The notes beneath the pieces are model-generated. The model was not told the origin of the DNA and searched no databases. It saw only the letters and a program-made list of their open reading frames with translations. A program made the translations under genes and the position numbers. Below, piece by piece: positions 12,564 to 59,842 of a stretch of 64,000 nucleotides of DNA. This DNA comes from Candidatus Hatepunaea meridiana (GTDB taxonomy: Bacteria; Electryoneota; AABM5-125-24; Hatepunaeales; Hatepunaeaceae). Position 1 is the first letter of the stretch. The number at the start of each line of letters is the position of its first letter. The stretch spans positions 2,939 through 66,938 of the forward strand of contig JAVCDD010000015.1 of assembly GCA_030765125.1 (NCBI GenBank), written 5' to 3'.

Positions 12564-12806
12564 GTGAAATATGGGGACAGTATACCTATTTTTATGAGTA
12601 GTTTTAGAAAGACCAACAGTATTTAGTGTCTGAACGAAAACCCTCATTTTTCTGAATATTAACCCTCTTTTGTCATTCCCGCGAAGGCGGGAATCCAGGA
12701 GAAACAATAAGTTATCTGGATTCCCGCCTTCGCGGGAATGACAAAAGAAGGGTTTTCGGTCAGACACTATTTAGAAAAATAGGTATACTGTTCCCATATT
12801 TCACTG
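12564..12806. mobile_element. MITE-like nested palindrome; inner 94-bp element has 38-bp TIRs AACCCTCTTTTGTCATTCCCGCGAAGGCGGGAATCCAG
   Basis: Near-perfect inverted repeats at 12661..12754. Outer inverted repeats AAATATGGGGACAGTATACCTATTTT lie at 12567 and 12781. The same TIR family occurs at 23071..23283 and 46596..46697. ORF 12561..12767 inside it is spurious. Confidence 0.6.
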
Positions 12807-17725: not shown

Positions 17726-17821
17726 GTTGAATTTTCATGTTGCGTTGTGCAATCTGTTGAATGAATATTCCGGACTTGATTCGGAATCCAGTCTTTCTCA
17801 CTTTCTCACTTGCCTACTTGC

Positions 17822-19573
17822 TCACTTCAACAATACCATCCGACTGACATTTCTGTATTGAACATTGTTATCATTCTTAGCAATAAACCTGTAGAAATAT
17901 ACTCCCGAAGAGACGGGGTTTCCTGCTTGGTTCATACCAAACCAGATCGCGCTATGATTGCCAGGCGTTTGTCGTTTATTAATCAGTTCTGTTATGAGAC
18001 GACCGGCGACATCATAGATGCTGATACAAACATCTGCCTCAAATGGGAGCGAGTAGCCGATCTCGGTTGATGAATTGAAAGGATTAGGATAGATACCCAT
18101 TATAGCAAATTCCATTGGCAGAGCTTCGTCGGACAATTCAACGCCTAACGCCGTGCCAATTAACTGGATTTCGAGTTCACCCTCGTCTCTATCATTGGAC
18201 TCGATTAGAAGAACGGCTTCATATTCGCCTTCATCCGGGGGATAGAAATAAATCATCAAGGTATGCGATGAATCGGGGGGGAGTTCAAGGTGATTGTCCT
18301 GGTCGCCTAAATCGAAAGGTGCATCGTCAGGCATTATCCTTAACCAAGTGATATCGAGTGGTTCCAGACCGACGTTGCTGATTTCCAATTCCGCTTCCGA
18401 AATATAATCCATCTGAACATCATTGAATTCAACTGATTCCGGTTCCACAAAGATATTGCATTGAGGAAAAAAGAAAGGTCCAATGTCGGCTGTAGTGCTG
18501 TCAGGGTCGGGATCGCCGGTCGGATCACCTGCGTCTATGCAGGGAGAGTCTTCGGTGGGAAAATAGCTTTCCGGGAAATCACCTTCCATTGCCAGCTCGG
18601 GATCCATAAACAGATTGCCGAAAACATCTGTTGAATCGCCGTTGACATTAACCCGGTCAAGGACTCCGAACTCATCTAATTCTAAATCTTCGGAAAGATT
18701 TAGATCGGCATTTTCGCGTCGATTGAAAAATAGATTATTCTTAATTTCAGGCATAGCAAAATCCTGATTAAAATCACCTTCTATCACCGTAATCATAGAT
18801 CCCTCACCCATAAAGATATTGTTGGTAATCTGACAGGAATCACAAACAGTTATAGCAGTCCCTCGATTGGGTAGATAGAAGAGACAGTTTGAAATAGAAG
18901 TAATAGAAGAACACTCTCCTGTAATTACGATACCCCCACCGTTAGCCATTTCAAAAACACATTGTGAAATTATAGAAACATCAGGTGATCTTGTTTCAAT
19001 GATTATGTCAAGCTCTATCCTAATTCTGAATCTACATTTGTACATCTCGTATCCATAATAGCTGTGTATTACTTGTCCTTCTCCTTGAAAAGAGCAATTC
19101 CTGAAAACCGGTTTATGGTCGTTTGATCCAACTAATATTAAGTTATTAAGTTCAGGCCAAAATTGGGTATAGCGTCTCCAATTTCTGAATTGGCAGTATG
19201 TAAACAGCACATCCTGTATTTCAACCTCATTCCAGGTAGTGTCCATGAAGGTAATGCCGCCCCAATTCCTTTCTCCTGCTTTATCAAAAGTAATGGAATC
19301 ATCCTCAGTCCCTTCAGCGATCAGCACACCCCAACAACCGATCCCGCCACTAGCAGGGAAGAGTACTGTAATTCCGGCTTCGATGATTAAAGTATCACCT
19401 CTCTCTATTCCAAATCCTCGATCCCCATCAAGATCACATATATAAGGACTTCCTTCTTGTGTCAACCGTCCGCTGATCCAACCGCCGATATGAGTCTCAG
19501 CGCCAGCCAAACTATAGAGTAACAGGGCTGAAAAGAATAAGAATAGTATTTTGTTTTTCATAATTGTATCCAT
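17822..19573 (-). CDS. T9SS cargo protein: signal peptide + right-handed beta-helix + Ig-like (choice-of-anchor-D-like) domain + T9SS C-terminal sorting domain
   Basis: 583 aa. Signal peptide, beta-helix N-cap (DTLIIEAGITVLF), and C-terminus GIYPNPFNSSTEIGYSLPFEADV...SGVYFYRFIAKNDNNVQYRNVSRMVLLK (T9SS CTD, TIGR04183-like). Confidence 0.75.
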   Translation of the reverse strand: MDTIMKNKILFLFFSALLLYSLAGAETHIGGWISGRLTQEGSPYICDLDGDRGFGIERGDTLIIEAGITVLFPASGGIGCWGVLIAEGTEDDSITFDKAGERNWGGITFMDTTWNEVEIQDVLFTYCQFRNWRRYTQFWPELNNLILVGSNDHKPVFRNCSFQGEGQVIHSYYGYEMYKCRFRIRIELDIIIETRSPDVSIISQCVFEMANGGGIVITGECSSITSISNCLFYLPNRGTAITVCDSCQITNNIFMGEGSMITVIEGDFNQDFAMPEIKNNLFFNRRENADLNLSEDLELDEFGVLDRVNVNGDSTDVFGNLFMDPELAMEGDFPESYFPTEDSPCIDAGDPTGDPDPDSTTADIGPFFFPQCNIFVEPESVEFNDVQMDYISEAELEISNVGLEPLDITWLRIMPDDAPFDLGDQDNHLELPPDSSHTLMIYFYPPDEGEYEAVLLIESNDRDEGELEIQLIGTALGVELSDEALPMEFAIMGIYPNPFNSSTEIGYSLPFEADVCISIYDVAGRLITELINKRQTPGNHSAIWFGMNQAGNPVSSGVYFYRFIAKNDNNVQYRNVSRMVLLK

Positions 19574-19738
19574 AAGATTGAGATAGGTGGACAGTAGTGA
19601 TACTGTCCACCTATCTCACTTTTACCTTTTGTCATTCCGGTTCCCCTTTTGTCATTCCGGACTTGATCCGGAATCCAGCCTTCCTTTTCGGTGCACTTTT
19701 CTTACATGCTTACTTGCTCACGTGCTTACTTTCTTACC

Positions 19739-21394
19739 TCACTTCAACAATACCATTCGGTGAATATTCCTATACTGGACATTGTTATCATTCTTAGCAA
19801 TAAACCTGTAGAAATATACTCCCGAAGAGACGGGGTTTCCTGCTTGGTTCATACCAAACCAGATTGCGCTATGATTACCAGGTGTTTGTCGGTTATTAAT
19901 CAGTTCAGTTATGAGACAACCGGAAACATCATAGATGCTGATGGAGACATCTGCCTCAAATGGGAGCGAGTAGCCGATCTCGGTTGATGAATTGAAAGGA
20001 TTCGGATAGATACCCATTGCTGCAAATTCCGTAGGCAGAGCTTCGTCGGACAAACCAACGCCCAATGCTGTGCCGACTAACGGGATTTCGAGTATATCTT
20101 CATCGCGGTCGTTGGATTCGATGAGCAGGCTGGCTTCATATCTTTGCTCTACAAGGGGTGCGAAACTGATAGTGACGACGCGGGATGAATCCGGTGAAAG
20201 CTCAAACTCCTGCTCTAAATCATTGATGCTGAACGGCATATTAACCGGATGAATCGTCCAGCTCTCAATCTGGAGCGGCAGCACACCGATATTCATTATT
20301 TCCAATTCCAATTCTACTATCTCATCAATCTGAACACCAATAAATTCAACGGTATCCGGTTCAACATCGATATTGCATTGCGGGTAGAAGAATGCGCCGA
20401 TGTCGGCACGTGTGCCGTCAGGGTCGGGGTCTGATTCGGGATCACCGGCATCGATGCAAGGGGAGTCGGAGGTTAAATAGTAAGAATCGGGGTAGATCCA
20501 AACGCTGTCTATCGGTCCGACCTGTAGCGGGTCTTGAAACAGGTTGCCGTACCTGTCCGTCGAATCGCCGTTGGCGTTGACCCGGTCGAGGATGCCGATG
20601 CCCTCAATATCAACGTTCTCGAATTCCTGATCATTGAACATGAAACAGTTATACTCCACATTATCATCGATTCCGGATAGTGCGATCCTATGACACACTA
20701 AGATATTGTTAAAAACCGAAGTCTCGTTATAAGCGTACAAAGCGCCTGACCAATTATTGCATATTTCACCGCGGAAAACACGCATACTACCGTAAATGAC
20801 GCATCGCTGTATTAAGCTGAAACCACCACGTAACCTCTCCCTGACAGGTAGCCCAGAGTAGGTGAAATAACAATCGGTAACAAACACATTTGAATTACGA
20901 CTTGTTCTTAGGCCGATCGAGGAAGTTACAAAAGTGCAATGAGAAAGAGTTGCGGTTAATTCTTCCCCGCCAAAAATCGAGACGGAACCTATATCAAGTT
21001 CCATATCGCATCCTTTAAGCCTGAATTCACAGAAAGACGCTCTGAAATCACTGTCCCCCTCTATCGAGATATATGACCAGCCATATCTATTATCTATATC
21101 CCTGAAGAATATGGAGTCATCTGCCGTCCCCTCCGTTATGAGCTTCGCACCTTCAACTACAAGTTCATGAGAAGACTCGAAAAGCACTTCAACGCCCGGT
21201 TCAATGATCAGAGTATCATTCTCCGCGATCCAAATAGCACGTTCCCTACCCGTAAGTATATATGGACTTCCATCGGTTGACCATATACCGGAAACCTCTC
21301 CTTCCACCCAGGTCGTGTCCGCAAATGAATTGACTAACGATAAGGGCGCAAGAACCAAAACAAAAAAGAATAATCGTTTCATGAACCACCTCAT
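19739..21394 (-). CDS. T9SS cargo protein paralog (beta-helix + conserved Ig-like module + T9SS CTD)
   Basis: 551 aa. Shares the module NRVNANGDSTD...DSPCIDAGDPESDPDPDG...ELELEIMNIGVLPL...SNDRDEDILEIPLVGTALGVGLSDEALPTEF with the two downstream paralogs. CTD is nucleotide-identical to that of 17822..19573. Confidence 0.75.
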   Translation of the reverse strand: MRWFMKRLFFFVLVLAPLSLVNSFADTTWVEGEVSGIWSTDGSPYILTGRERAIWIAENDTLIIEPGVEVLFESSHELVVEGAKLITEGTADDSIFFRDIDNRYGWSYISIEGDSDFRASFCEFRLKGCDMELDIGSVSIFGGEELTATLSHCTFVTSSIGLRTSRNSNVFVTDCYFTYSGLPVRERLRGGFSLIQRCVIYGSMRVFRGEICNNWSGALYAYNETSVFNNILVCHRIALSGIDDNVEYNCFMFNDQEFENVDIEGIGILDRVNANGDSTDRYGNLFQDPLQVGPIDSVWIYPDSYYLTSDSPCIDAGDPESDPDPDGTRADIGAFFYPQCNIDVEPDTVEFIGVQIDEIVELELEIMNIGVLPLQIESWTIHPVNMPFSINDLEQEFELSPDSSRVVTISFAPLVEQRYEASLLIESNDRDEDILEIPLVGTALGVGLSDEALPTEFAAMGIYPNPFNSSTEIGYSLPFEADVSISIYDVSGCLITELINNRQTPGNHSAIWFGMNQAGNPVSSGVYFYRFIAKNDNNVQYRNIHRMVLLK

Positions 21395-23031
21395 TTCAAA
21401 ACCGACATCTTTCTGGTCGCGTTGTAAACGGTCCCATGCTCCGTTACAGCCTCGATCTCATAGAAATATATTCCGGTAGGAACCGTTCGACCATTCGATG
21501 AAGTTCCGTTCCATGCAGCAGAGTGCCAACCGGCATTACGTAAACCTTCGTTCAACCGGCAGATCAATCTGCCCTCTATATCGAAGATGTCAATTCTTAC
21601 CCGTGACGGAGAATTGAGCGAATAAGGGATGTTTGTGGAAGTATTGAAGGGGTTGGGGTAGATGTCCGCTACAGCAAATTCAGTTGGCAGATCCGTATCG
21701 GACAAACCAACACCCAATGCCGTGCCGACTAACGGGATTTCGAGTATATCTTCGTCGCGGTCATTGGATTCGATGAGCAGGCTGGCTTCATATCTTTGCT
21801 CTTCAAGGGGTGCGAAACTGATAGTGACGACGCGGGATGAATCCGGTGAAAGCTCAAACTCCTGCTCTAAATCATTAATGCGGAACGGCATATTAACCGG
21901 ATGAATCGTCCAGCTATCAATCAGAAGCGGCAGCACACCGATATTCATTATTTCCAATTCTAATTCCGCTCTCTCATCTGGCTGAATATTTATAAATTCA
22001 ATGGTATCAGGTTCAACGTTGATGTTACATTGCGGGTAGAAGAACGCGCCGATGTCAGGGAAGGTGCCGTCAGGGTCGGGGTCATCTTCCGGGTTGCCGG
22101 CGTCGATGCAGGGGGAATCGTCTTGAAGGAAATGCTGGTCGGGGAAGTCGTCTCCTCCAACAAGCTGAGGGTCGAGTATCACATTGCCGAATCTGTCGGT
22201 GGAATCGCCGTTGGCGTTGACGCGGTTGAGGACGCCGACTTCTTCGATATCTTCCGAGGTTATTTCTGCATAATTATAAAAGCAATTGTTTGAAACGTTA
22301 ACAGCGTTACCGACAATCGCCGTCCCGCCGCCGCGGCTTAAAAAGATCGAATTAGTAACGCTGCCGCCTCCGTCATTGCATAGTACAAAACAAGTATTAT
22401 AAAATATGCAGTGATCAGCAATTCCCTTAACAGTTGCATGACCATAGGAGACCCTCTTAAATATACATCGTCTTACGATTGTACTGTCGTCTCTTTGTGG
22501 TATAATAGCCCTCCCATATACAATTCCGTCAAATAAACAGTCTTCAATGATGTAATCTGAACCACTTACATCTATACCTTTAGCAAGGCTATTGAATGTT
22601 GAATGCCTGACTTCAAGTGATGAAGCACCACTAATAGCTTCTGATGTACAAAAATAACCAAATACTGCGTAAAAATGACAATAATCGAATCTACCAGTTG
22701 AATTCTCACCTCTGAAATTTATACCACCCCAGCTTTCATGATCATCATAATTAAGAGGAATGAACAATATTGAATCGTCTATTGTTCCTTCGGCTGTTAT
22801 TGTTAGGTTATCACCTGCTATGTTAACATGAAAGCGAAATAAAACAATTACACCGGGTTCAATAATTAAATCGGCATCATCACTAAAACGCACATTTGTA
22901 TCAACTATATAAGGACTCCCCTCAATATCCCATACACCACCTTCCATTTGACCTCCGACGTGAGTTTCAGAGAACAAAAGAGGAGATAAAAGGAATTGAA
23001 GCAACAAAATAGTAAAGATTTTCTTAATCAT
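21391..23031 (-). CDS. T9SS cargo protein paralog (beta-helix + conserved Ig-like module + divergent T9SS CTD)
   Basis: 546 aa; 4-nt overlap with the upstream paralog; CTD variant IYPNPFNTSTNIPYSL...TRKMSVLK. Confidence 0.75.
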   Translation of the reverse strand: MIKKIFTILLLQFLLSPLLFSETHVGGQMEGGVWDIEGSPYIVDTNVRFSDDADLIIEPGVIVLFRFHVNIAGDNLTITAEGTIDDSILFIPLNYDDHESWGGINFRGENSTGRFDYCHFYAVFGYFCTSEAISGASSLEVRHSTFNSLAKGIDVSGSDYIIEDCLFDGIVYGRAIIPQRDDSTIVRRCIFKRVSYGHATVKGIADHCIFYNTCFVLCNDGGGSVTNSIFLSRGGGTAIVGNAVNVSNNCFYNYAEITSEDIEEVGVLNRVNANGDSTDRFGNVILDPQLVGGDDFPDQHFLQDDSPCIDAGNPEDDPDPDGTFPDIGAFFYPQCNINVEPDTIEFINIQPDERAELELEIMNIGVLPLLIDSWTIHPVNMPFRINDLEQEFELSPDSSRVVTISFAPLEEQRYEASLLIESNDRDEDILEIPLVGTALGVGLSDTDLPTEFAVADIYPNPFNTSTNIPYSLNSPSRVRIDIFDIEGRLICRLNEGLRNAGWHSAAWNGTSSNGRTVPTGIYFYEIEAVTEHGTVYNATRKMSVLK

Positions 23032-23070
23032 TTTTCTCTCATTTTAATGATTCTGCTGAAAAACATCCTA

Positions 23071-23283
23071 TTTTGTCATTCCCGCGAAACAGACAGTCCG
23101 AGAATGCTGAAATCCCGCTGGCAGACGCCCTCGTCTGCCAGTTAAGTCCTTGTTTTTTCGTCAGACGAGGGCGTCTGACGACGGGTGAATATCTATTCTC
23201 GGACAGTCTGGAAAGCTGGAATCCAGATGGAGTGTTAAATACTTGAAAACTCTGGATTCCCGCTTTCGCGGGAATGACAAATA
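23071..23283. mobile_element. MITE-A copy (TTTTGTCATTCCCGCGAA... TIRs) interrupted by a nested ~125-bp hairpin element
   Basis: The left TIR is truncated after ttttgtcattcccgcgaaa. It is followed by an insert with its own inverted repeats cagacagtccgagaa/ttctcggacagtctg, carrying GTCAGACG hairpins homologous to 1895..1992. The insert is followed by the MITE-A centre and an intact right TIR. Confidence 0.55.
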
Positions 23284-23319
23284 AATGATCGCAGGCAGAG
23301 ACACCTACGCTACTATCAA

Positions 23320-25158
23320 TTATCGGATTAAAACCATCCGGTTTACAATATTTTCAGTATTGCCCGCATCATATTCAATGGAAATATTGTATAAATAGAT
23401 ACCTGAAGCAACTTCCAAACCACTTCTGTCAAGACCGTTCCAGGTAACACGGTTAGCGCCTGCTTGCTGCATACCGGAAACAAGTTCCTTAACGAGCCTG
23501 CCTTTGATGTCGTAGATCCTTAAGCTGACTTCACCGGATTGCGGAATGCTATAGCTGATCTCGGTTGATGAGTTGAAAGGATTCGGATAGATACCCATTG
23601 CTGCAAATTCCGTAGGCAGAGCTTCGTCGGACAAACCAACGCCCAATGCTGTGCCGACTAACGGGATTTCGAGTATATTCTCGTCGCGATCATTGGATTC
23701 GATGAGCAGGCTGGCTTCATATCTTTGCTCTTCAAGGGGTGCGAAACTGATAGTGACGACGCGGGATGAATCCGGTGAAAGCTCAAACTCCTGCTCTAAA
23801 TCATTGATACGGAACGGTATATTATCCGGGTGAATCGTCCAGCTCTCAATCAGAAGCGGCAGCACACCGATATTCATTATTTCCAGTTCCAATTCCGCTC
23901 TCTCATCAGGTTGAATATTTACAAATTCAACGGTATCGGGTTCAACGTTGATGTTACATTGCGGGTAGAAGAATGCGCCGATGTCGGGGAAGGTGCCATC
24001 AGGGTCAGGGTCTGACTCGGGGTCGCCAGCGTCGATGCAAGGCGAGTCATCGGACAGGTGGAAGTCGTCGTTATCATGATCGATGAATTGAGGATCTTCA
24101 TGAATTACATGATCACTGTACTCCTCAAGCCATTCGCCTTCAATATCGCAATAGGATAAGATCACCTCGTCAACATCTTCATAGAAGTGAACTTGAGGTC
24201 CTTCATAGGCACGGTTTCCCCAGAATATACAGTTCGATACAATACTCCATTCATTAGCCACAACACAGATACCACCACCAATTTCACTTTCGTTAAATAC
24301 GATAGTATTTGAATGGAATCGAAAAGGTCTCGCAGAATGATCAAAATATATAGCTCCACCCGCGTTTCCAGCACTATTATATGAAAAAACGTTATATTGC
24401 ACTTCTGCTAAGGTGAGATGACCCAAGCTTAATGCACCGCCATTGTAACCTGCTTGGTTACCGATAAACATATTTCCTGTTATGGTAAATTCCCCGAAAG
24501 GTGATTCCCAAGTCCCGATTGCTCCACCAGACCCTAAAGCGGAATTATCAATAAACAGGTTCTCAACAACCCTGATATCTCCGGAAAACCTAATACTCAA
24601 TGCTCCACCGCTGACTCCACAATTCTCTATAAATAAGTTTCTTTCAATAGTTACGGGATGGCAAAAATATGTGCATATAGCTCCACCCCACCAGTAACAT
24701 TGATTGTCTGAAAAAGTGGAGTTACTGATATTCAATTCGGCTTCCTCACAATAAAGAGCACTGCCTCGGACGTAGTTATCTTCATCACCTACGATGCAAT
24801 TACTGACTATACAATATCTTAATGTTACCACAGCACCACTATCAGCCCTGATACCACACCAGAATTCCTCGTCTTCATCGGAATGAAAAACTATGGAGTC
24901 ATCTACCGCTCCCTCTGCAAGAAGTTCACCATAAACCAACAGCGAATAGGGACCATTGAAATTTATTATTACACCGGGTTCAATCATCAGTGTATCTTCA
25001 GCGGGGATAAAGATGGTGTCCAGGACGACTACAGGCGAATCGTCGATAGTCCATGTACCACTTACTTCGTCTTCAACTTCAATTGCGTATAGATTATTTA
25101 ATGCAAGTATGCAGAATATTGACAAGGCGACGCAAATAAGTATTTGTTTTTTGTTCAT
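23320..25158 (-). CDS. T9SS cargo protein paralog with pbH1-type parallel beta-helix repeats, conserved Ig-like module and T9SS CTD
   Basis: 612 aa with glycine-rich pbH1-like repeats (SGGALSIRFSGDIRVVENLFIDNSALGSGGAIGT), the conserved module shared with 19739.. and 21391.., and CTD ...GIYLYNISIEYDAGNTENIVNRMVLIR. Confidence 0.75.
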   Translation of the reverse strand: MNKKQILICVALSIFCILALNNLYAIEVEDEVSGTWTIDDSPVVVLDTIFIPAEDTLMIEPGVIINFNGPYSLLVYGELLAEGAVDDSIVFHSDEDEEFWCGIRADSGAVVTLRYCIVSNCIVGDEDNYVRGSALYCEEAELNISNSTFSDNQCYWWGGAICTYFCHPVTIERNLFIENCGVSGGALSIRFSGDIRVVENLFIDNSALGSGGAIGTWESPFGEFTITGNMFIGNQAGYNGGALSLGHLTLAEVQYNVFSYNSAGNAGGAIYFDHSARPFRFHSNTIVFNESEIGGGICVVANEWSIVSNCIFWGNRAYEGPQVHFYEDVDEVILSYCDIEGEWLEEYSDHVIHEDPQFIDHDNDDFHLSDDSPCIDAGDPESDPDPDGTFPDIGAFFYPQCNINVEPDTVEFVNIQPDERAELELEIMNIGVLPLLIESWTIHPDNIPFRINDLEQEFELSPDSSRVVTISFAPLEEQRYEASLLIESNDRDENILEIPLVGTALGVGLSDEALPTEFAAMGIYPNPFNSSTEISYSIPQSGEVSLRIYDIKGRLVKELVSGMQQAGANRVTWNGLDRSGLEVASGIYLYNISIEYDAGNTENIVNRMVLIR

Positions 25159-25995: not shown

Positions 25996-26059
25996 AATAT
26001 AGAACGCTTCGTTGTGCGGAATACGCCGGCGGAGCTTTTTTATTATAAGGGAAGAAACA

Positions 26060-29000
26060 ATGGTTCACCGATTTGCTTTAATTCTCTCGCTGATGGTTTT
26101 CTGCTTAACCATCACAACCGTATCAGCCCAGGAAATCATCGAAGTAGGAGACTTTGATACACCAGGGCTGGCTAAGGACGTTGTCGTCGCCGGTAACCAC
26201 GCATACATTGCGGATTACGGCAGCGGTCTGCGTATCATCAACATATCCGATCCGGAAAACCCTGATGAAGTCGGGGCTTTTGACACTCAGGGGAATGCTT
26301 GGGGCGTCGTCGTTTCCGGTGATTTCGCTTACATAGCTGACTACGCAAGCGGATTGCGTATAGTCAATATTTCCGATCCGGAAAATACCAATGAGGTTGG
26401 TAATTACGACACGCCAAGTCACGCCTTTAGCGTCGTCGTTATAAACAGCCTTGCTTATATCGCAGATGGCGAGGAGTCCGGATTACTCATAATAAACGTC
26501 GCCGATCCGGCAAATCCCGACATAGTTGCAAGCTTTGAGACTGAGGGAACCGCCTTCGACGTTTCCGTTGTCGGTAATCTTGCATACATCGCAGACGCTG
26601 GTTTTCTGCGCATTATTGATGTGTCTGATTTAGACAATATGGTCGAAGTCGGAACTATTGAAACTCGGGGTACCGCCAAAGGCGTAGCTGTCGCCGGTGA
26701 TTATGCTTACATCGCTGATGGCGAAAGCGGGTTGCGTATTATCAACGTATCCGATCCGGAGAACCCGGAAGAAGTGGGGGACTTCAATACACCCGACGAT
26801 GCCAGCGATGTTACCGTTGTCGGCAGCTATGCCTACGTAGCTGACGGTGAAAGCGGTCTTTACATAATTGATGTTTCTAATCCGGAGGAACCGGAAGAAG
26901 CAGGTTCTTTCGATACCCCGAACGAGGCGATAGGCGTCACCGGAAATGATGAATATATATACATAGCAGATAACACAAGCGGTCTGCTTATTCTAAACGT
27001 ATCCGAATTTCACATTCCTATTATTGCCGTTGCCCCTGAAGCCCTTGACTTTGAAGAGGTCGAGTTAAACCAGAGTGCGGAATTGACTTTGACCATCAAT
27101 AACGAGGGTGGTAATGATCTGACCATTTCGGATGTCTCATTAACTGGAGACCACTTCAGCGTTGACTTTGAAGATGAAGTTGTCGTTGAACGAGATGAAG
27201 ACTATGAATTAACGGTAACCTTTGCGCCTGAGGAAATCGGTGAACTACGGGATACTTTAATAATTACATCCAACGATCCTGATAACGGTGAAGTAACCAT
27301 ATTCCTGAGTGGTGTTGGCGTAGGACCGGTTATTTCCATTGATCCCGAGACGATGGTCTTCGGTCAGGTGTTAGTCGGTGAAGCTGGTGAGATGATTATT
27401 ACAATCAGCGACTCTGGAAACACTAATCTAATTGTGTCTGATATTTTAGTTGAAGGCGATTATTTCTACGTTGATTTCGAGCAGGAGTTAGTAATTGAAC
27501 CGAACGGCGCCGCTGAAGTGTCGGTCAGCTTTGCACCTGAAGAATTCCGCGATTGCCAGGGAACACTGACTATTACATCCAACGATCCTAATCGGGATGA
27601 GATAGTTATCAACTTAACTGGTTCTGGGGTTGCAGTAGCCATCCGCGAGGTCGGCGCTTTCAATACGCCGGGCGAGGCGCGGGGCATTGCGGTAGTTGGT
27701 GATATTGCTTACATTGCAGATGGTCAAACCGGTTTGATTATTTTCGATATTTCCAATCCTGCCGAACCGGATTCTCTTGGAGCCTGTGATACGCCTGGTG
27801 ATGCATACTACGTCATCGTCGTAGGTGAATATGCTTACATCGCCGATCAAACAGGCGGTTTAAGGGTAATTAATGTTTCCGATCCAACTGAACCCGAAGA
27901 AGTCGGATACTACGATACTGCCGGTGAAGCCAGAGGCGTTGCTGTGCTTGGGAACTATGCTTATATCGCAGACGGTGATCCAGGTCTCATAGCAATAAAC
28001 ATCTCTAATCCTGAAGATCCGGAGCAGGTAGGAGCATTCAATTCTCCCGGAACGGCAAGGGGTGTCACAATCTCAGGGGAATACGCTTATGTATCGGATG
28101 GAGGAAGCGGTCTTCGTATCGTAGACTTGTTTGATCCACGCAGCCCGGAAGAAATTGGCTCTTTCGATACACCGGGGTGGGCGTTGAGTTCCTTTATCGC
28201 TGGAGATTACGCTTATGTTGCCGACTGGCGCAATGGTATGCAGATCATTGATATATCCGATTTGGAAAATCCTGATTTGGTGAGCTCTTTTGATACACCG
28301 GGTGAAGCTTTGAACCTTGCAATTGTTGGTAATTACGTTTATATTGCTGATTTAGGTAGTGGTCTGCGAATGATCGACGTATCCAACCGTCGTCAACCTG
28401 AAGAAGCCGGATACTTTGATACACCCGGTAACGCAAGAGGCGTTGCCGTAATTGGTGACTATGCTTACGTAGCTGATGGACCGGGTGGATTGCGTATCCT
28501 CGATGTATCTAACATCGGCGAACCCTTACCGTTTATCTCAGTAGCGCCTTTAGAATTGGACTTCGGTGAGGTGATGCTGAATGAAGGTACGCAGTTGGCT
28601 ATAACAATCAGCAATGTTGGCGGTGCTGATCTGACCATTTCAGAAGTTGTCAGCAATTTTGGATGCTTTACAACCGATTTCGAGGATGAGATTGTCCTTG
28701 AACCAGATGAAAGTGAAAATGTAATGGTTACGTTTACACCGGATCATCACGGACTATTTGAAGGAACTATAACCATTACTTCAAATGATCCATTTACCGA
28801 AGAAGTAACTGTTACTCTGCGTGGAAACGGAATTATCGGCGTTATCCATCATATTGGTTTCTTTGATACGGAAGGGCATGCACTGGATGTGGTAATTGAA
28901 AATAATTATGCCTATGTGGCTGACCGGCGAGCTGGAATGAGCATAATCAGTATTGCCGATCCGTTTAATCCGAGTGAAGTTGGATACATCGATTCACCGG

Positions 29001-31234
29001 GTGACGCACGCGGTGTTGCCGTCCAGGGTGATTATGCTTATATAGCGGATTGGAATCAAGGATTGCGTATTATACTCGTCAGCCGTCCAACCCTTCCGCG
29101 CGAAGCTGGATTCTTTGTTACCGATGGAAATGCTCGAGGTGTCGCCGTAGCCGGGAACTATGCTTATGTTGCAATGCAGGAGAGCGGTCTTAGTATCATT
29201 GACATATCCGATCCCGCAGAACCCAGCGAAGTTGGCTCTTTCGATACACCGGGAGCTGCCTATGCCGTTGCCGTTGTTGAAGACTATGCTTATGTCGCTG
29301 ACGGAACAGGTGGACTTAGGGTGATAAATGTTTCAGATCCGCAAGAGCCTCGGGAAGTCGGCGCTTATGATACTGAGGGTCAATCTTATGGCATTACAGT
29401 TGATGGTGAGTTAGCATACGTTGCTGATGGTGACGGCGGTTTACGCATCATTAACATATCCGATCCGGAACATCCTGAAGAAGTGGGAGCATATCAAGAA
29501 TTGGAGCAATCCTGGGACGTTGCTGTTGAAGACGGCTTTGCATACATAGCGGACTATGAAAACGGTCTGCGCTTAATAGACGTTTCCGATCCCGAAAATC
29601 CCAACGAGGTCGGAGACTATGACACTCCTGGACTAGCTTACGGAGTCGCTGCCGCAAACGAGCATTACGCTTACGTAGCAGATTATGATAGCGGATTACG
29701 TATCCTTGACGTATCTGAAGTCATCGGTTGGGAAGCGCAAGATCCTGCTATTATCGTTTCACCGGATGAGTTAATCTTCGATCAGGTTGAGATCGGTCTG
29801 AATCGTAATCTCAACATTACTATTCGCAATGAAGGCAATGCTGATTTGATTGTATCCAATATTTATGTTACTGACAATGCTTTCAGTGTAGATTTCCCTG
29901 ATCAGCTCGCTATAGAGCCCGGCAACAGCGAAGAGATTGTGGTTACTTTTGCACCTGACAGATTCAGCGAATCCGAAGGAGACCTGATTATCGAATCCAA
30001 CGATCCGAATGGCGACGTATCAATCTCTTTGATCGGTTCAGGTGTTTACATTGTGATTAGCGAGATGGGGTATTTCGATACTGAAGGAAATGCTAAAGAC
30101 GTCGCAATCGTGGGTGATTACGCCTATGTAGCTGATGGTGAAGCGGGAATAAGCATAATAGATATTACCGATCTGCAAAACCCCAATGAAGTAGGAACAT
30201 TAGATACACCGGACGAAGCTTTTGCAATTGAGGTAGTTGGTGATTATGCTTATGTGGCAGACAAAGAGAGCGGGTTGCGCGTCATTAACATCTCAAATCC
30301 TGAGCAACCGGAAGAGGTTGGTTCTTATGACACACCGGGAATGGCAAGAGAAGTTGTTGTTGTCGGCAACTATGCTTACGTTGGCGATGGCGCTGATGGT
30401 TTCCGAGTGATTGACATATCAACTCCTGACGACCCACGTGGTACAGGCATCTATAATACACCTGACGAAGCCTGGGGAATCACCATTATCGGTGAATACG
30501 CATACGTAGCGACAAGGGAAAGAGGGTTGCGTATTCTAAACATCTTCGATCCGCAACGTCCAAATGAGGTTGGATTCTACGATACGCAGAGATACGCCCG
30601 CGACGTCAGCGTGTCCGGTGACTATGCTTATGTGGCAGACGGCACCGGCGGACTGGTCGTGTTAAATATTTCTGATCCGGAGCATCCTCGTAAAGAGGGC
30701 GAATTATTAACTATGGACGAAGCTCGCAGTATCACCATCCGTGGAAATTTTGCATTCGTCGCCGATAAGGAAGGTGGATTGCGGATTATTGATATCTCGC
30801 ATCCGGATGATCCGGAAGAGATCGGATTCTATAATACTTCAGACGAGTCTTTCGGAGTTACTGTTGTGGATGACAGATATGCCTACGTAGCGGACGGAGA
30901 GAACGGACTGCGAATACTTGACGTTTCAAACATCCACGGCGTAAACGATCAACAGGATAATCCTATTCCAACGGAATTCAATTTATCGGCAGCCTATCCG
31001 AATCCGTTCAACTCGACTATGAATATATCGTATGACCTGCCCGTCCTGACAAATATTTCATTGCAGATATTCGATGTCAACGGTAGAGTTACAGCAACGC
31101 TTTATTCAGGTGCAAGAGCGCCGGGGCGTTATCATTCAATTTGGAACGGACGCAATTCACCATCAGGCATTTACTTGATTAGGTTGAATTCATCCGATTT
31201 CAATGCTGTACGTAAAGTAGTACTAACGAAATGA
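26060..31234 (+). CDS. giant secreted LVIVD-repeat protein: four ~7-bladed LVIVD beta-propellers separated by choice-of-anchor-D Ig-like domains, with T9SS C-terminal sorting domain
   Basis: 1724 aa from the ATG at 26060 (track ORF begins at an upstream TTG). Signal peptide MVHRFALILSLMVFCLTITTVSAQ. Contains >25 copies of a ~40-aa unit G.YAY[IV]AD...GL[RV]I[IV][DN][IV]SDP.NP.EVG.[YF]DTPG.A.GV.V. Ig-like segments such as ELTLTINNEGGNDLTISDVSL...ITSNDPDNGEV appear four times. C-terminus AAYPNPFNSTMNISYDL...IRLNSSDFNAVRKVVLTK. Confidence 0.8.
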   Translation: MVHRFALILSLMVFCLTITTVSAQEIIEVGDFDTPGLAKDVVVAGNHAYIADYGSGLRIINISDPENPDEVGAFDTQGNAWGVVVSGDFAYIADYASGLRIVNISDPENTNEVGNYDTPSHAFSVVVINSLAYIADGEESGLLIINVADPANPDIVASFETEGTAFDVSVVGNLAYIADAGFLRIIDVSDLDNMVEVGTIETRGTAKGVAVAGDYAYIADGESGLRIINVSDPENPEEVGDFNTPDDASDVTVVGSYAYVADGESGLYIIDVSNPEEPEEAGSFDTPNEAIGVTGNDEYIYIADNTSGLLILNVSEFHIPIIAVAPEALDFEEVELNQSAELTLTINNEGGNDLTISDVSLTGDHFSVDFEDEVVVERDEDYELTVTFAPEEIGELRDTLIITSNDPDNGEVTIFLSGVGVGPVISIDPETMVFGQVLVGEAGEMIITISDSGNTNLIVSDILVEGDYFYVDFEQELVIEPNGAAEVSVSFAPEEFRDCQGTLTITSNDPNRDEIVINLTGSGVAVAIREVGAFNTPGEARGIAVVGDIAYIADGQTGLIIFDISNPAEPDSLGACDTPGDAYYVIVVGEYAYIADQTGGLRVINVSDPTEPEEVGYYDTAGEARGVAVLGNYAYIADGDPGLIAINISNPEDPEQVGAFNSPGTARGVTISGEYAYVSDGGSGLRIVDLFDPRSPEEIGSFDTPGWALSSFIAGDYAYVADWRNGMQIIDISDLENPDLVSSFDTPGEALNLAIVGNYVYIADLGSGLRMIDVSNRRQPEEAGYFDTPGNARGVAVIGDYAYVADGPGGLRILDVSNIGEPLPFISVAPLELDFGEVMLNEGTQLAITISNVGGADLTISEVVSNFGCFTTDFEDEIVLEPDESENVMVTFTPDHHGLFEGTITITSNDPFTEEVTVTLRGNGIIGVIHHIGFFDTEGHALDVVIENNYAYVADRRAGMSIISIADPFNPSEVGYIDSPGDARGVAVQGDYAYIADWNQGLRIILVSRPTLPREAGFFVTDGNARGVAVAGNYAYVAMQESGLSIIDISDPAEPSEVGSFDTPGAAYAVAVVEDYAYVADGTGGLRVINVSDPQEPREVGAYDTEGQSYGITVDGELAYVADGDGGLRIINISDPEHPEEVGAYQELEQSWDVAVEDGFAYIADYENGLRLIDVSDPENPNEVGDYDTPGLAYGVAAANEHYAYVADYDSGLRILDVSEVIGWEAQDPAIIVSPDELIFDQVEIGLNRNLNITIRNEGNADLIVSNIYVTDNAFSVDFPDQLAIEPGNSEEIVVTFAPDRFSESEGDLIIESNDPNGDVSISLIGSGVYIVISEMGYFDTEGNAKDVAIVGDYAYVADGEAGISIIDITDLQNPNEVGTLDTPDEAFAIEVVGDYAYVADKESGLRVINISNPEQPEEVGSYDTPGMAREVVVVGNYAYVGDGADGFRVIDISTPDDPRGTGIYNTPDEAWGITIIGEYAYVATRERGLRILNIFDPQRPNEVGFYDTQRYARDVSVSGDYAYVADGTGGLVVLNISDPEHPRKEGELLTMDEARSITIRGNFAFVADKEGGLRIIDISHPDDPEEIGFYNTSDESFGVTVVDDRYAYVADGENGLRILDVSNIHGVNDQQDNPIPTEFNLSAAYPNPFNSTMNISYDLPVLTNISLQIFDVNGRVTATLYSGARAPGRYHSIWNGRNSPSGIYLIRLNSSDFNAVRKVVLTK

Positions 31235-33099: not shown

Positions 33100-33129
33100 C
33101 GTCTTATCTTGTTCAACTCAATAAAATAT

Positions 33130-33230
33130 ACAAAATCAGTAGAAGCGACACTCTTGTCGCTTGAATGTTAGATTTACCACAACTTTGTAAGCGACGCAAG
33201 CGACAAGAGTGTCGCTTCTACTGATTTTGT
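33130..33230. mobile_element. MITE-C (33-bp TIRs ACAAAATCAGTAGAAGCGACACTCTTGTCGCTT)
   Basis: Perfect terminal inverted repeats flank a 35-bp centre; a second copy with the same TIR core lies at 40149..40240. Confidence 0.55.
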
Positions 33231-33277
33231 AACTCTTTAATAATTGAAGAATAAACGCTATTTTTAAAGGGAGTATC

Positions 33278-36200
33278 ATGAAAACAAACAAGAACTTATT
33301 CCTCATTTCAGCGCTTATAGCAATAATATGCTTTCAAGTAAACACTGCCGGCGCTGCAAACTGGTACGATCTATATGCACGCGGAACCAGACTGATGAAG
33401 AAGGAAAACTACGACAAGGCAGCCGAATGCTTTGCTAATGCGCTGAAACAGAACGATTCGGATAATCCGCGTGTTCGTACTTCAGGAATGCGCTTTATTA
33501 AATACTACCCACACAGAGAACTGGGTATATGCTATTACAATCTGGGTCGGTATTCAGAAGCTATGGAACAATTACGGGTTTCAATCCGGCAGTCTTCTAC
33601 CTCCAGTGCAAAGAGTTATCTGTCATTGGCTGAAAAGCAGATGGTTAATGTTCAAAATCAGATTAAGCAAGACAAGATAAAACAGGACGCTCTCGCCAGG
33701 GAAGCTCAAGAACGGGAAAAACAAGAAAGAATTAAAAAGAACGAACTCGCCAGGATAGAGTCGTCTGATCTGGGAGTCGCGGGTCAAGAATCCCACATAG
33801 AGATTACTCCATTGAAGAGGTTGAAGGAACAACCTGGATTGGTTGTCAGTATGGCATTCAGTCCCGATAGCAAATACTTAGCAAGCAGAAGCGGCAGCAA
33901 CATCCAACTATGGAATACTGAAACCGGTTCAAGCGCCGGGAAACTTACCGGGCATTCAGATGGTGTCTGGGATCTATGCTTCAGCGGGGATGGACAGCTT
34001 GCAAGCGCCAGCTTTGATGAAACTTCCAGGTTGTGGTCTATTGTAAACAAGCAATCAACCAGAACAATAACCGGACATTCGGCAAAGGTTCGGGCTGTTG
34101 CTCTCAGCCCTGACGGCAAGAGGCTCGCAAGCGGTGACGGGGATGGTATTATTAAACTATGGGATATGCAAAACGGACAGGAATTGAAATCGTTCAATCA
34201 TTATAACCGATGGATCAATACACTTGAGTTTAGTCCAAATGGATCCATACTTGCGAGCGGAGATGGCAATGGGACAATCAAACTGTGGAATATATATAAC
34301 GGTGAAGAGATTAAAACGCTTAAAGGACATTACGAAAGAGTAGATGTAGCATTCAGTCCGGACGGAAAGTATCTCGCCAGCGGTAGCAAAGACACAAAGA
34401 TTAAAATATGGGATGTTGAGAACGGCAATGTGATCAGAACATTGGAGGGACATACTTCCTCTGTCAATTCGATCTGCTTCAGTCCGGACGGCTTTTGGCT
34501 GGCAAGTGGAAGTGGGAAATGGGACGGTGGAGGCGAGAACAATTCGGTCAGGATCTGGTTAGTTGGCAGCGGTCAGGAAGTTAGAAAAATAAAAGCCTAC
34601 AATACTGTCTATTCAGTTGCATTCAGTCCGGATGGCTCTATGCTCGCCGCTGGAAGCGGGGATTATAGCACTGCCAAAGGTGAAGTCGAACTGTGGCGGG
34701 TTAAAATGCACAAACCGGAATTCGGTCTTCCTCCAAACCTGTTTGCCGAACTTAGCTTTGAAGATGACAATGGTAACGGTATACTCGATGCGATGGAATC
34801 AGCGCTGTTGGAAGTAACCCTCTATAACAAAGGGAAAGGTACTGCCCATCTTCTGCAGATTTGTATTGAGGACGATCAATATGATCCTGAACTGAAAATC
34901 GGAGGGAATGTAGTCTGGGAGTTACCCTCTAAAAATCAGACGAAAGTCACTATTCCTATTAGAACAGGCATGGACCTGAAATCTGCAAAACACCGGTTTA
35001 AAATCAGTGTTCTCGAGTACTTCGGATATGATATGGATCCAGCATACCTATCGCTCAACACGCAGGAATATTCGCCTCCAAAACTTGTCTATTCCGGTAT
35101 GGACATTGATGATTGGAGTGAGGGAACCGGCGGCAATGATGAGGATGGTCAGTTGCAGGCTGGTGAACTGGTTAAAATGAAGATTGTTGTGCAGAATATT
35201 GGTCAGGAGCCTGCGCTTAATACGAAATACTCCGTCAGAAGCGATGATAATAATATACGCCTCAAAGAAGGATACGGCACACTCGGCACAATAAAACCAG
35301 GGGAAGTCAAGGAATTTTGGATCACCATCAGTCCAAACAAACGTGTTACAACTGAGGATGATCTGCCCGTTTATCTGACGATGACTGAATCGATAGGCAA
35401 AGGCAAACTTTTAAATTTCCAGTTACCGATAAAGCTCAACCAGAAGCCTCCCCAAATGAATGTTGTCGAGGTCAAACCGGATTTGTCGCGACTCCAGCAA
35501 CAGATCGCAAAGTTTGAATACACATCTTCTAAATTCAAGACCCGTATTAAAAAGAAAGAAGATGTATGGGCTGTCAAGCGGTCTCGTTCGAGTCGACCGA
35601 ATTCTACAGCAGTCGTGATAGGCGTAGAAAATTATAAAAAACTTGCGCCGGCGCCATTTGCTGCAAGAGACGCTGATCTAATGGAAAAGTATTTTAGGGA
35701 GCTGCTTGGTGTTGATAATGTTGTTCTGTATAAGGATAACGACGTCTCAGGTATGGTGTTCGATGATATTTTCAACCCTGACAATGGTGAACTTCAGACG
35801 TCAATTATCCAAGGGGAAACAGAACTGTTTGTATATTACTCCGGTCACGGCATCCCGAATAAAACCGGTTCAGAGGTATATCTTGTTCCTTCTGATGTAA
35901 AAATTCACCGGCTTGAAGAACAGGGATACAGCTTGAACAAGTTCTATAAGAATCTGAGCGAGTTGGGCGCTAAAAATACGATGGTGATACTCGATGCCTG
36001 TTTCAGCGGTGGGTCGCGTTCAACCGGCAGTATAAAAGAAGAGAATCTCGTTGCACACAAGGCTGTTGGACTAAAGATCAAGGAGCCGTGGCGGACTTAT
36101 AAGAACTTTACGGTAATAAACTCGTCAACCGGTAGTGAGACCTCGTTGGGATTTGACCAGTCGGAGACAGGGCTGTTTACCTACTATCTGGCATTAGGAC

Positions 36201-40131: not shown

Positions 40132-40148
40132 TGAAAAGTGACAAGGAC

Positions 40149-59838: not shown

Positions 59839-59842
59839 ACTA

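What the first reader, a model, noticed from the sequence alone, without database searches (positions are those of the whole stretch)
17822..25158. Tandem array of four T9SS cargo paralogs with mosaic module sharing (variable beta-helix head, near-identical Ig-like core, swapped CTDs)
Four consecutive minus-strand genes encode signal peptide, beta-helix, Ig-like module and T9SS CTD. Genes 2-4 share an almost nucleotide-identical ~250-aa module. Conserved antisense ORFs 20070..20252, 21662..21904 and 23651..23833 have identical translations, which betrays this DNA identity. Genes 1 and 2 share a nucleotide-identical CTD, while genes 3 and 4 have different CTDs. The N-terminal beta-helix regions are divergent. 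This pattern suggests recent gene conversion or cassette shuffling that generates surface-protein diversity, possibly a variable adhesin or glycoside-binding repertoire.
Basis: seen in the sequence. Interest (0 to 1): 0.6.

Follow-up and report, generated by a model that had tools for sequence, protein, structure and literature searches.

The report
Recombining family of secreted surface proteins
Four neighbouring genes of an uncultured Antarctic-lake bacterium encode secreted beta-helix surface proteins that have swapped stalk and export-tag segments by ordinary recombination, a pattern already known from other bacterial surface-protein families.

Summary
The four minus-strand genes are real. 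Each encodes a signal peptide, a right-handed beta-helix head, an ASH/HYDIN-type Ig-like domain and a T9SS type A C-terminal domain (CTD). The source is a MAG of Candidatus Hatepunaea meridiana (phylum Electryoneota).

The mosaic is real but overstated. Genes 2-4 share 263-371 nt (88-124 aa, not about 250) at 94.6-96.2% nucleotide identity. The gene 1/2 CTDs are 91% identical over the whole CTD (95% over the best 240 nt), not identical. The three antisense ORFs are near-identical by-products.

Recombination is well supported:
- dS is 0.05-0.33 in shared modules and saturated in the heads.
- A PHI-like test gives z = -28.
- All four combinations of two Ig types and two CTD types occur.

The same MAG carries four more paralogs: a second three-gene array and a singleton. 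Tract ends fall in two conserved junction motifs.

I found no silent cassettes, recombinase or reverse transcriptase. Independent assemblies reproduce the genes exactly. The evidence therefore points to old, sporadic non-allelic recombination, not a programmed switching system. Close precedents exist (P. gingivalis gingipains/HagA, T. forsythia KLIKK proteases). This is a new member of a known kind, of modest interest.

The parts
17822..19573 (-). g1: 583-aa T9SS cargo. Head H1 18551-19573, choice-of-anchor-Q-like junction motif 18452-18550, Ig type A 18158-18451, linker 18068-18157, CTD type 1 17825-18067.
   Evidence: ASH 29.7 bits, TIGR04183 31.9 bits, Beta_helix 21.2 bits (below cut-off).
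19739..21394 (-). g2: 551-aa T9SS cargo and the clearest mosaic. Unique head H2 20468-21394, junction motif 20369-20467, Ig type B 20075-20368, linker 19985-20074, CTD type 1 19742-19984.
21391..23031 (-). g3: 546-aa T9SS cargo. Head H3 22120-23031, junction motif 22021-22119, Ig type B 21727-22020, divergent linker 21637-21726, CTD type 2 21394-21636. Its stop overlaps the g2 start by 4 bp (ATGA).
   Evidence: The independent JGI contig L006 is 100% identical to window 21103-23065.
23320..25158 (-). g4: 612-aa T9SS cargo. Pmp-type beta-helix head H4 24049-25158 with 6 GGA[ILV] and 7 FxxN motifs, junction motif 23950-24048, Ig type B 23656-23949, linker 23566-23655, CTD type 3 23323-23565.
   Evidence: Beta_helix 57.6 bits, Chlam_PMP 43.4 bits, TIGR01376 32.5 bits.
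19976..20314 (-). g2 copy of the shared Ig-B/linker tract. It matches g4 23557-23895 (339 nt, 95.6%). Over 20046-20308 it matches g3 21698-21960 (263 nt, 96.2%).
21698..22068 (-). g3 copy of the shared tract. It matches g4 23627-23997 (371 nt, 94.6%).
23557..23997 (-). g4 copy of the shared tract: the union of its g2-like and g3-like stretches.
17767..18120 (-). g1 copy of the CTD-1 tract shared with g2 (19738-20037 at 91%; best 240 nt at 95%). The similarity continues about 55 nt past the g1 stop codon, and about 85 nt past the g2 stop, and includes a GGATTCCG-N-CGGAAT hairpin.
19574..19738 (-). g2-g1 intergenic region, with a perfect 18-bp-stem hairpin at 19579-19618 and the shared 3' flank.
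23032..23319 (.). g4-g3 intergenic region. It carries a dispersed repeat bounded by inverted copies (23044-23088 and 23235-23281). Other copies lie at 12699-12745 and 46575-46689.
   Evidence: D11, D17

Best explanation
[quoted passage not shown] How each protein most likely works (inferred from established knowledge of T9SS type A cargo):
- A Sec signal peptide takes it to the periplasm.
- The T9SS recognises the C-terminal type A CTD and carries the protein across the outer membrane.
- The CTD is then removed, and the protein is either anchored to the surface or released.
- The exposed part is a right-handed parallel beta-helix head held on one Ig-like (ASH/PapD-type) stalk domain.
- The head probably binds or cleaves a polymer. 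g4's head is of the Pmp adhesin type. g2's head resembles PL6/pectate-lyase-type enzymes and beta-helix adhesins equally well.

How the family evolved (shown here): it grew by tandem and segmental duplication. The heads diverged until synonymous sites were saturated. The 3' part of the genes (junction motif, Ig stalk, linker, CTD, and in places the 3' flank and the next gene's 5' end) was repeatedly exchanged between paralogs by RecA-type homologous recombination. This was non-allelic gene conversion and/or unequal crossing-over. Exchange ends fall in two motifs that are conserved at nucleotide level in all copies: DSPCIDAGDP..DPDPDGT and LSDEALPTEFA..GIYPNPFNSS. The outcome is a combinatorial set of heads, three Ig types and four CTD types.

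The exchanges are old (4-9% divergence) and sporadic. This is not a programmed switching system.
For: Architecture.

Source and family size:
- The source is the Ca. Hatepunaea meridiana MAG.
- A second array has consecutive accessions MDP8239197/198/199 on a 38,152-bp contig.
- There is also a singleton, P0123, which in the MAG is split across two contig ends.

DNA-level exchange:
- Tracts of 263-371 nt at 94.6-96.2% sit next to heads at 41-46% nt identity.
- dS is 0.18-0.24 in Ig-B, 0.045 in the g2-g4 linker, 0.33 in the g1-g2 CTD and 0.19 in the g4-P0006 CTD. In the heads it is at least 1.6 or saturated.
- The g1-g2 similarity continues into non-coding DNA past the stop codons.
- The stretch [g4 CTD, intergenic region, g3 head] is collinear with [P0006 CTD, intergenic region, P0002 head] at about 88.6%.

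Incongruence between modules:
- Ig types are A (g1, P0006), B (g2, g3, g4, P0002, P0123) and C (P0018).
- CTD types are 1 (g1, g2), 2 (g3), 3 (g4, P0006) and 4 (P0018, P0002, P0123).
- All four combinations A1, B1, A3 and B3 exist.
- 70 sites support the split {g1,P0006|rest} in the Ig region. In the CTD region 10 sites support {g1,g2|rest} and 11 support {g4,P0006|rest}.
- The PHI-like statistic is 0.163 against 0.378 +/- 0.008 in permutations, with 0 of 5000 reaching the observed value.

Not an assembly artefact:
- Exact repeats are at most 116 nt.
- L006 is 100% identical across the whole of g3 and the g3/g2 junction.
- L001 and L002 are identical to each other.

No programmed machinery.
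Against: - The function of the heads is untested. No catalytic residues were identified, and residues 200-340 of the g2 model have low confidence.
- T9SS machinery genes were not seen in the window, and the rest of the MAG could not be read.
- Gene conversion cannot be separated from unequal crossing-over or hybrid-gene duplication with these data.
- One ENA contig (L003) joins the P0123 head to the P0002 CTD and its downstream genes. It is either an assembly chimera or evidence that exchange between loci is still happening. If the latter, 'old and sporadic' would be too conservative.
- No close sister-species orthologs were available, so conversions could not be dated against speciation.
Confidence: 0.8

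Rival explanations
1. An actively used diversity-generating system. Under selection for surface variation, frequent and possibly ongoing cassette exchange re-pairs heads, stalks and CTDs within the population. This is essentially the first reader's view.
For: - The combinatorial module pattern.
- Tract ends fall at conserved junction motifs.
- Contig L003 is a hybrid of two loci, switching within nt 1993-2058.
- In the MAG, the P0123 gene is broken at the repeat.
Against: - There are no silent or truncated cassettes. All copies are complete genes.
- No recombinase, invertase or reverse transcriptase was found among the Pfam-scanned large ORFs of the window.
- The tracts are 4-9% diverged.
- Different assemblies give identical sequence for g3 and for the P0018-P0006-P0002 junctions.
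- The MAG copy of P0006 differs from it by only 2 aa.
- L003 can be explained as a short-read chimera.
Confidence: 0.1
2. No recombination. The shared segments are simply the most constrained parts of old duplicates, conserved by purifying selection.
For: The Ig, linker and CTD modules are functional and show dN/dS below 1. The junction motifs are conserved across the wider family.
Against: - Synonymous sites are also shared: dS 0.05-0.33 against saturation in the heads.
- The identity extends into non-coding 3' flanks and intergenic DNA.
- The Ig and CTD modules give incompatible groupings, and all four module combinations occur.
- Other CTD pairs are only 31-41% identical in protein, so the CTD as such is not that constrained.
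Confidence: 0.02
3. Assembly artefact. The metagenome assembler mis-joined or collapsed repeat copies, which created false mosaics.
For: The family does break or confuse assemblies. P0123 is split over two MAG contigs, and L003 is probably chimeric.
Against: - The longest exact repeats in the window are 73-116 nt, shorter than normal reads.
- The copies differ at 10-20 positions per tract.
- L006 independently reproduces all of g3 plus the start of g2 at 100%.
- Swapping the g2 and g4 tails would make the order g4-g3-g2-g1 circular and therefore inconsistent.
- P0006 (Ig-A with CTD-3) is recovered by three assemblies.
Confidence: 0.04
4. The mosaic comes mainly from duplication of already hybrid segments and from unequal crossing-over that creates hybrid genes. 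Copy-number-neutral gene conversion plays little part.
For: - The segment spanning CTD-3, the intergenic region and head H3 is duplicated between the two arrays.
- The g1/g2 tract includes the 3' flank.
- The genes are in tandem and in the same orientation.
Against: - The patchwork inside the tracts is nested and short. g3=g4 starts upstream of the point where g2 joins. g3 leaves before the linker, whereas g2=g4 continues. g1 joins for 75 nt. Conversion tracts explain this more simply than whole-segment duplications.
- Ig-B is shared by three loci on different contigs.
Confidence: 0.3

Closest known systems
Porphyromonas gingivalis RgpA / Kgp / HagA (T9SS cargo with shared adhesin domains; Dashper et al. 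2017, PMC5266723)
   Same: These are T9SS CTD surface proteins whose genes exchange domain-sized segments by homologous recombination or gene conversion. The result is a mosaic that does not follow the genome phylogeny.
   Different: In P. gingivalis the shared units are cleaved-adhesin (haemagglutinin) domains attached to cysteine proteases in a host-associated pathogen, and variation is documented between strains. Here the shared units are an Ig stalk and the CTD itself, attached to beta-helix heads, in a free-living anoxic-lake bacterium of another phylum. Variation between strains is not shown.
Tannerella forsythia KLIKK proteases (Ksiazek et al. 2015, PMC4404884)
   Same: Six T9SS cargo genes lie in two clusters. 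They have unrelated N-terminal functional domains, a conserved 30-residue junction motif and a nearly identical 86-residue CTD. This is the same logic of a variable head plus a shared tail, spread over two arrays.
   Different: All KLIKK proteins share one CTD type, and their heads are proteases of different classes. Here there are four CTD types and three Ig types in combinatorial pairings, and all heads are beta-helices.
Chlamydia polymorphic membrane proteins (Pmp; PF02415 / TIGR01376)
   Same: g4's head carries the GGA[ILV]/FxxN repeat pattern at about 27-residue spacing, above the curated cut-offs. Pmps are also a paralogous beta-helix surface family.
   Different: Pmps are type V autotransporters with a C-terminal beta-barrel. 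g4 has an Ig domain plus a T9SS CTD instead. g1-g3 lack the Pmp repeats.
Pectin-lyase-fold enzymes and adhesins (PL6 alginate lyase 7dmk, pectate lyase 1ru4, PfbA 3zpp, Vag8 7akv)
   Different: Sequence identity is 10-14%. No catalytic residues or Ca2+ sites were identified. The fold alone does not separate an enzyme from an adhesin.
Programmed antigenic-variation cassette systems (Neisseria pilE/pilS, Borrelia vlsE, Anaplasma msp2)
   Same: Segmental gene conversion between paralogous surface-protein sequences.
   Different: Those systems have one expression site plus promoterless partial cassettes, and they switch at high frequency. Here every copy is a complete, presumably expressed gene, and the tracts are old.

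Membership tests
T9SS type A cargo (TIGR04183 / PF18962 CTD proteins) | CTD of about 70-80 residues at the extreme C-terminus, scoring above the curated cut-off | tested here: met
   TIGR04183 scores 31.9, 29.5, 30.9 and 35.3 bits against a cut-off of 23. PF18962 scores 28.6, 28.3, 30.9 and 33.6 bits against 27. All matches end within about 12-18 residues of the C-terminus.
T9SS type A cargo (TIGR04183 / PF18962 CTD proteins) | N-terminal Sec signal peptide | tested here: met
   Each protein has a basic N-terminal region followed by a hydrophobic core of at least 12 residues (mean Kyte-Doolittle 2.4-3.2) and a small-residue cleavage context. No dedicated signal-peptide predictor was available.
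T9SS type A cargo (TIGR04183 / PF18962 CTD proteins) | The genome encodes the T9SS machinery (SprA, PorV, PorU, PorK/L/M/N) | not testable with these tools
   None was seen among the window's Pfam-scanned ORFs. The rest of the MAG could not be fetched: the genome-contig scan did not contain it. The phylum belongs to the FCB group.
Right-handed parallel beta-helix (PF13229, pectin-lyase fold) | Sequence match above Pfam's gathering score | tested here: inconclusive
   g4 scores 57.6 bits (met). g1 scores 21.2 bits, below the 25.9 cut-off. g2 and g3 give no hit.
Right-handed parallel beta-helix (PF13229, pectin-lyase fold) | Three-dimensional beta-solenoid fold | tested here: met
Polysaccharide lyase / glycoside hydrolase (enzymatic beta-helix) | Conserved catalytic residues or a Ca2+ site | not tested
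   Only fold-level and weak profile similarity was obtained: BcAlyPL6 at E = 1.9e-6. No active-site mapping was done.
Chlamydia Pmp autotransporters | GGA[ILV] and FxxN repeats | tested here: met
   g4 only: 6 GGA[ILV] and 7 FxxN motifs, PF02415 43.4 bits and TIGR01376 32.5 bits. g1-g3 do not meet this.
Chlamydia Pmp autotransporters | C-terminal type V autotransporter beta-barrel | tested here: not met
   The C-terminus is an Ig domain plus a T9SS CTD, with no autotransporter hit. g4 is therefore Pmp-like in its head only.
Choice-of-anchor D domain (NF012200) | Score above NCBIfam's cut-off of 45 bits | tested here: not met
   Scores are 18.9-21.2 bits. The domain does pass PF22544 HYDIN/VesB-like Ig in g2, g3 and g4 (28.6-31 bits against 25.5) and PF15780 ASH in g1 (29.7 bits against 27). 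Foldseek and the profile search hit ASH/PapD-like and HYDIN Ig domains.
Multigene family shaped by non-allelic gene conversion / recombination | Nucleotide-level identity tracts, with shared synonymous sites, inside otherwise diverged paralogs | tested here: met
Multigene family shaped by non-allelic gene conversion / recombination | Phylogenetic incongruence between adjacent segments (four-gamete / PHI) | tested here: met
Programmed cassette-type antigenic variation | One expression locus plus silent partial cassettes | tested here: not met
   All eight copies are full-length with a start codon and signal peptide. In the MAG, one copy (P0122 + P0124) is split across contig ends.
Programmed cassette-type antigenic variation | Dedicated recombinase, invertase or DGR reverse transcriptase nearby | tested here: not met
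   None among the Pfam-scanned ORFs of at least 150 aa in the 64-kb window. Three ORFs at 58972-63608 were not scanned.

The most novel reading that the evidence does not exclude
The two nucleotide-conserved junction motifs (DSPCIDAGDP..DPDPDGT, and LSDEALPTEFA..GIYPNPFNSS) might act as recombination 'splice sites'. They would let the population keep re-pairing beta-helix heads with different Ig stalks and with four CTD classes. The CTD class would in turn decide a different fate for the protein, for example anchored versus released, or a different T9SS shuttle. That would be a combinatorial, still-active surface-remodelling system in a free-living 'dark-matter' phylum. The hybrid contig L003 would then be a caught-in-the-act recombinant and not a chimera.
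Probability: 0.08. Interest if true: 0.5.

Novelty: new member of a known kind. Interest (0 to 1): 0.25.

Why it matters
It is a clean, quantified example of module exchange among T9SS cargo genes outside Bacteroidota, in the candidate phylum Electryoneota. It shows that the CTD export tag itself can be swapped between paralogs.

There is a practical lesson for this MAG. These repeats fragment assemblies, and they appear to have produced at least one hybrid contig, so gene models in this family should be checked at read level.

Biologically it suggests that Ca. Hatepunaea invests in a diversified set of beta-helix surface proteins, although the published description found few polysaccharide-degrading genes (PMC9324843). 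It does not reveal a new mechanism.

Tried and rejected
1. The exact-product look-ups for g2, P0002 and P0018 returned nothing. DNA of the second array was therefore available only in part, through L001 and L002.
2. The genome-contig scan did not contain this genome and returned one distant locus. The metagenome-contig scan gave only L005, L006 and one distant hit. No population series could be analysed.
3. Rfam and tRNA scans of the window found nothing. There is no RNA element or tRNA-linked island.
4. The composition profile shows no island signature: GC is 0.42-0.47 across the array, like the flanks.
6. phmmer of the g4 head against PDB sequences gave only chance-level hits.
7. The promoter/terminator scan was uninformative apart from the hairpins: 29 promoter-like sites against 19 expected.
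8. I treated the antisense ORFs as possible genes and rejected that. They are short, overlap the coding strand of conserved modules, and their conservation is fully explained by the repeat.
9. I first counted P0005 (L003) as a genuine paralog. I then replaced it with P0123 (L005), because the 3' half of L003 belongs to the P0002 locus.

Full report
**What is there**

The region 17822-25158 holds four consecutive minus-strand ORFs:
- g1, 17822-19573, 583 aa
- g2, 19739-21394, 551 aa
- g3, 21391-23031, 546 aa; its stop overlaps the g2 start by 4 bp
- g4, 23320-25158, 612 aa

An exact protein match identifies the source as a 67,413-bp contig of the MAG 'Candidatus Hatepunaea meridiana'. This organism belongs to the candidate phylum Electryoneota in the FCB group. 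It was described from the anoxic zone of Ace Lake, Antarctica (PMC9324843). That paper does not discuss T9SS or these genes.

The flanks are ordinary chromosome. On one side lie a class A PBP and a HAD hydrolase. On the other lies a divergently oriented 1740-aa LVIVD-repeat T9SS cargo gene. GC content is unremarkable.

**Architecture**

- All four proteins have a Sec-type N-terminus.
- All four have a T9SS type A CTD above the curated cut-offs of both TIGR04183 and PF18962.
- All four have an ASH/HYDIN-type Ig-like domain above Pfam cut-offs. Choice-of-anchor D stays below NCBIfam's cut-off.
- Pfam sees a beta-helix clearly only in g4 (57.6 bits). g4 also carries Chlamydia-Pmp repeats, with 6 GGA[ILV] and 7 FxxN motifs.
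- For g2, an AlphaFold model built on 33 homologs gives a confident beta-solenoid over residues 28-200 and two confident beta-sandwiches (Ig and CTD). Residues 200-340 are poorly modelled.
- The family profile hits the PL6 lyase 7dmk at E = 1.9e-6 and HYDIN Ig at E = 1.9e-15.

The head's function, enzyme or adhesin, is not decided by fold.

**The repeat, measured**

Codon-aligned and nucleotide alignments show heads at 41-46% nt and 25-38% aa identity. They also show the following high-identity tracts:

| Pair | Length | Identity | Coordinates |
|---|---|---|---|
| g2-g3 | 263 nt | 96.2% | 20046-20308 / 21698-21960 |
| g2-g4 | 339 nt | 95.6% | 19976-20314 / 23557-23895 |
| g3-g4 | 371 nt | 94.6% | 21698-22068 / 23627-23997 |
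| g1-g2 | 240 nt | 95.0% | 17862-18101 / 19779-20018 |

- The g1-g2 CTD is 91.4% identical over its full length.
- The pattern is a nested patchwork. g3=g4 begins upstream of the point where g2 joins. g3 leaves before the linker. g2=g4 continues through the linker into the first codons of the CTD. g1 joins there, so g1=g2=g4 for about 75 nt. g4 then leaves, and g1=g2 runs to the stop codon.
- The g1-g2 similarity continues 55-85 nt past the stop codons, at 89% with indels, and includes a hairpin.
- The module shared by g2-g4 is therefore 88-124 aa at about 95%, not 'about 250 aa almost identical'. The g1/g2 CTD is similar, not identical.
- The three antisense ORFs exist but differ at 2-5 of 60 residues. 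They are by-products of the repeat.

**Is it recombination?**

- Synonymous divergence is 0.18-0.24 in the Ig-B module, 0.045 in the g2-g4 linker and 0.33 in the g1-g2 CTD. In the heads it is saturated. Protein-level constraint cannot explain this, nor the extension into non-coding DNA.
- The homolog search and cluster look-ups show four more close paralogs in the same MAG.
  - One set is a second tandem array: P0018, P0121 (= P0006) and P0002. Their accessions, MDP8239197-199, are consecutive on a 38,152-bp contig.
  - The other is a singleton, P0123. In the MAG it is split over two contig ends exactly at the repeat.
- Contig L001/L002 confirms the order: P0018 tail, P0006, a palindromic repeat, then the P0002 start.
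- Module typing:

| Module | Type | Members |
|---|---|---|
| Ig | A | g1, P0006 |
| Ig | B | g2, g3, g4, P0002, P0123 |
| Ig | C | P0018 |
| CTD | 1 | g1, g2 |
| CTD | 2 | g3 |
| CTD | 3 | g4, P0006 |
| CTD | 4 | P0018, P0002, P0123 |

- All four combinations A1, B1, A3 and B3 occur, which requires exchange between the Ig and CTD modules.
- On six sequences with DNA available, 70 informative sites support {g1,P0006|rest} in the Ig region. In the CTD, 10 sites support {g1,g2|rest} and 11 support {g4,P0006|rest}.
- A PHI-like statistic is 0.163, against 0.378 +/- 0.008 in permutations; none of 5000 permutations reached it.
- The stretch [g4 CTD, intergenic region, g3 head] is collinear with [P0006 CTD, intergenic region, P0002 head] at about 88.6%. 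Segmental duplication between the two arrays therefore also contributed.
- Tract ends coincide with two motifs conserved at nucleotide level in all copies: the choice-of-anchor-Q-like DSPCIDAGDP..DPDPDGT motif, and the linker/CTD start LSDEALPTEFA..GIYPNPFNSS.

**Is it an assembly artefact?**

Probably not.
- The longest exact repeats in the window are 73-116 nt.
- A separate JGI contig (L006) is 100% identical to window 21103-23065. It spans the whole of g3 and the g3/g2 junction.
- L001 (ENA) and L002 (JGI) are identical to each other.
- Any swap of tails would make the gene order inconsistent.

The family does trouble assemblers, however. The ENA contig L003 is identical to L005 (the P0123 locus) up to nt 2057. 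It then follows the P0002 CTD and P0002's downstream genes, the cytochrome MDP8239200 and the LUD protein MDP8239201. This is either a chimera or a genuine recombinant between loci. I could not decide which without reads.

**Is it a programmed diversity generator?**

I found no support for that.
- Every copy is a complete gene with a signal peptide.
- No recombinase, invertase or reverse transcriptase was found among the Pfam-scanned large ORFs of the 64-kb window; three ORFs at 58972-63608 were not scanned.
- The tracts are 4-9% diverged, while the same genes are identical between assemblies.
- The exchange homogenises or re-pairs the stalk and export tag. The heads diverge by mutation.

The best reading is sporadic non-allelic homologous recombination, by gene conversion and/or unequal crossing-over, in an expanded family of T9SS surface proteins.

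In two distant relatives the homolog is a single gene lying just downstream of an S8 peptidase T9SS cargo gene. This hints that the expansion is lineage-specific, but it rests on two loci only.

**Comparison with known systems**

- In P. gingivalis, RgpA, Kgp and HagA are T9SS cargo that exchange domains by recombination (PMC5266723).
- In T. forsythia, the KLIKK proteases form two clusters with variable heads, a conserved 30-residue junction and a nearly identical 86-residue CTD (PMC4404884).
- These are close precedents. The phylum, the beta-helix heads and the combinatorial use of several CTD types are new details, not a new principle.

**Verdict**

- It is a new member of a known kind.
- Interest is 0.25.

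Noticed in passing
window 12699-12745, 23044-23088, 23235-23281, 46575-46689; related copies at 17770-17791 and about 19650-19690: A dispersed intergenic hairpin repeat (CTGGATTCCCGCYTTCGCGGGAATGACAAA and its inverse). In the g4-g3 spacer, two inverted copies bound a segment of about 240 nt, like a REP or MITE element. A related hairpin follows the g1 and g2 stop codons.
   Followed up: partly
window 33109-33251 and 40142-40245; L001 2004-2107: A second palindromic intergenic element: 55-nt arms, 84% complementary. It also lies between P0006 and P0002 in the second array (92% to window 40149-40241).
   Followed up: no
window 26012-31234 (+): A 1740-aa T9SS cargo gene with 25 LVIVD repeats, four HYDIN-type Ig domains and a CTD. 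It is divergently oriented next to g4 and contains internal 126-nt DNA repeats.
   Followed up: partly
window 47037-49448, 49441-51858, 52806-53105: A tandem pair of MacB/FtsX-type ABC permease genes (803 and 805 aa) sharing 81-91% nucleotide identity over long stretches. A third partial copy of the 3' end, and a repeated upstream region (51969-52025 and 53256-53312), lie nearby. This is another recombining tandem duplication.
   Followed up: partly
window 33278-36358 (+): A 1026-aa protein combining a WD40 beta-propeller with a C-terminal caspase (Peptidase_C14) domain.
   Followed up: no
window 37248-39198 (+): An AAA_21 (AbiEii/OLD-like ATPase) gene followed by an overlapping DUF4276 gene. 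This pairing is often seen in candidate defence systems.
   Followed up: no
window 36706-36867 and 63840-64000: A 160-nt direct repeat (88-97% identity) 27 kb apart. It contains an internal GC-rich palindrome (AGCTTGCTGCGC...GCGCAGCAAGCT). The second copy runs to the end of the window.
   Followed up: no
L003 (ENA ERZ27315452 k141_98073) compared with L005 (JGI Ga0075114_10013922): The two contigs are identical for 1954 nt. They then diverge inside the shared Ig-B module. L003 continues with the CTD and downstream genes of a different locus (P0002). It is either a chimeric assembly or a real recombinant between loci.
   Followed up: partly
L008 5080-9653 and L009 696-5212: In two distant relatives the beta-helix/Ig/CTD homolog is single-copy. 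It sits directly downstream of a gene of about 920-950 aa encoding a Peptidase_S8 with a FlgD_ig/CTD-like tail. This may be a conserved gene pair, and it is absent from the window array.
   Followed up: no
window 19579-19618: A perfect 18-bp-stem hairpin lies 6 nt upstream of the first in-frame ATG of g1. NCBI's gene model starts 4 codons later, at MKNKILF. The NCBI model of g2 likewise starts 4 codons inside the longest ORF.
   Followed up: no
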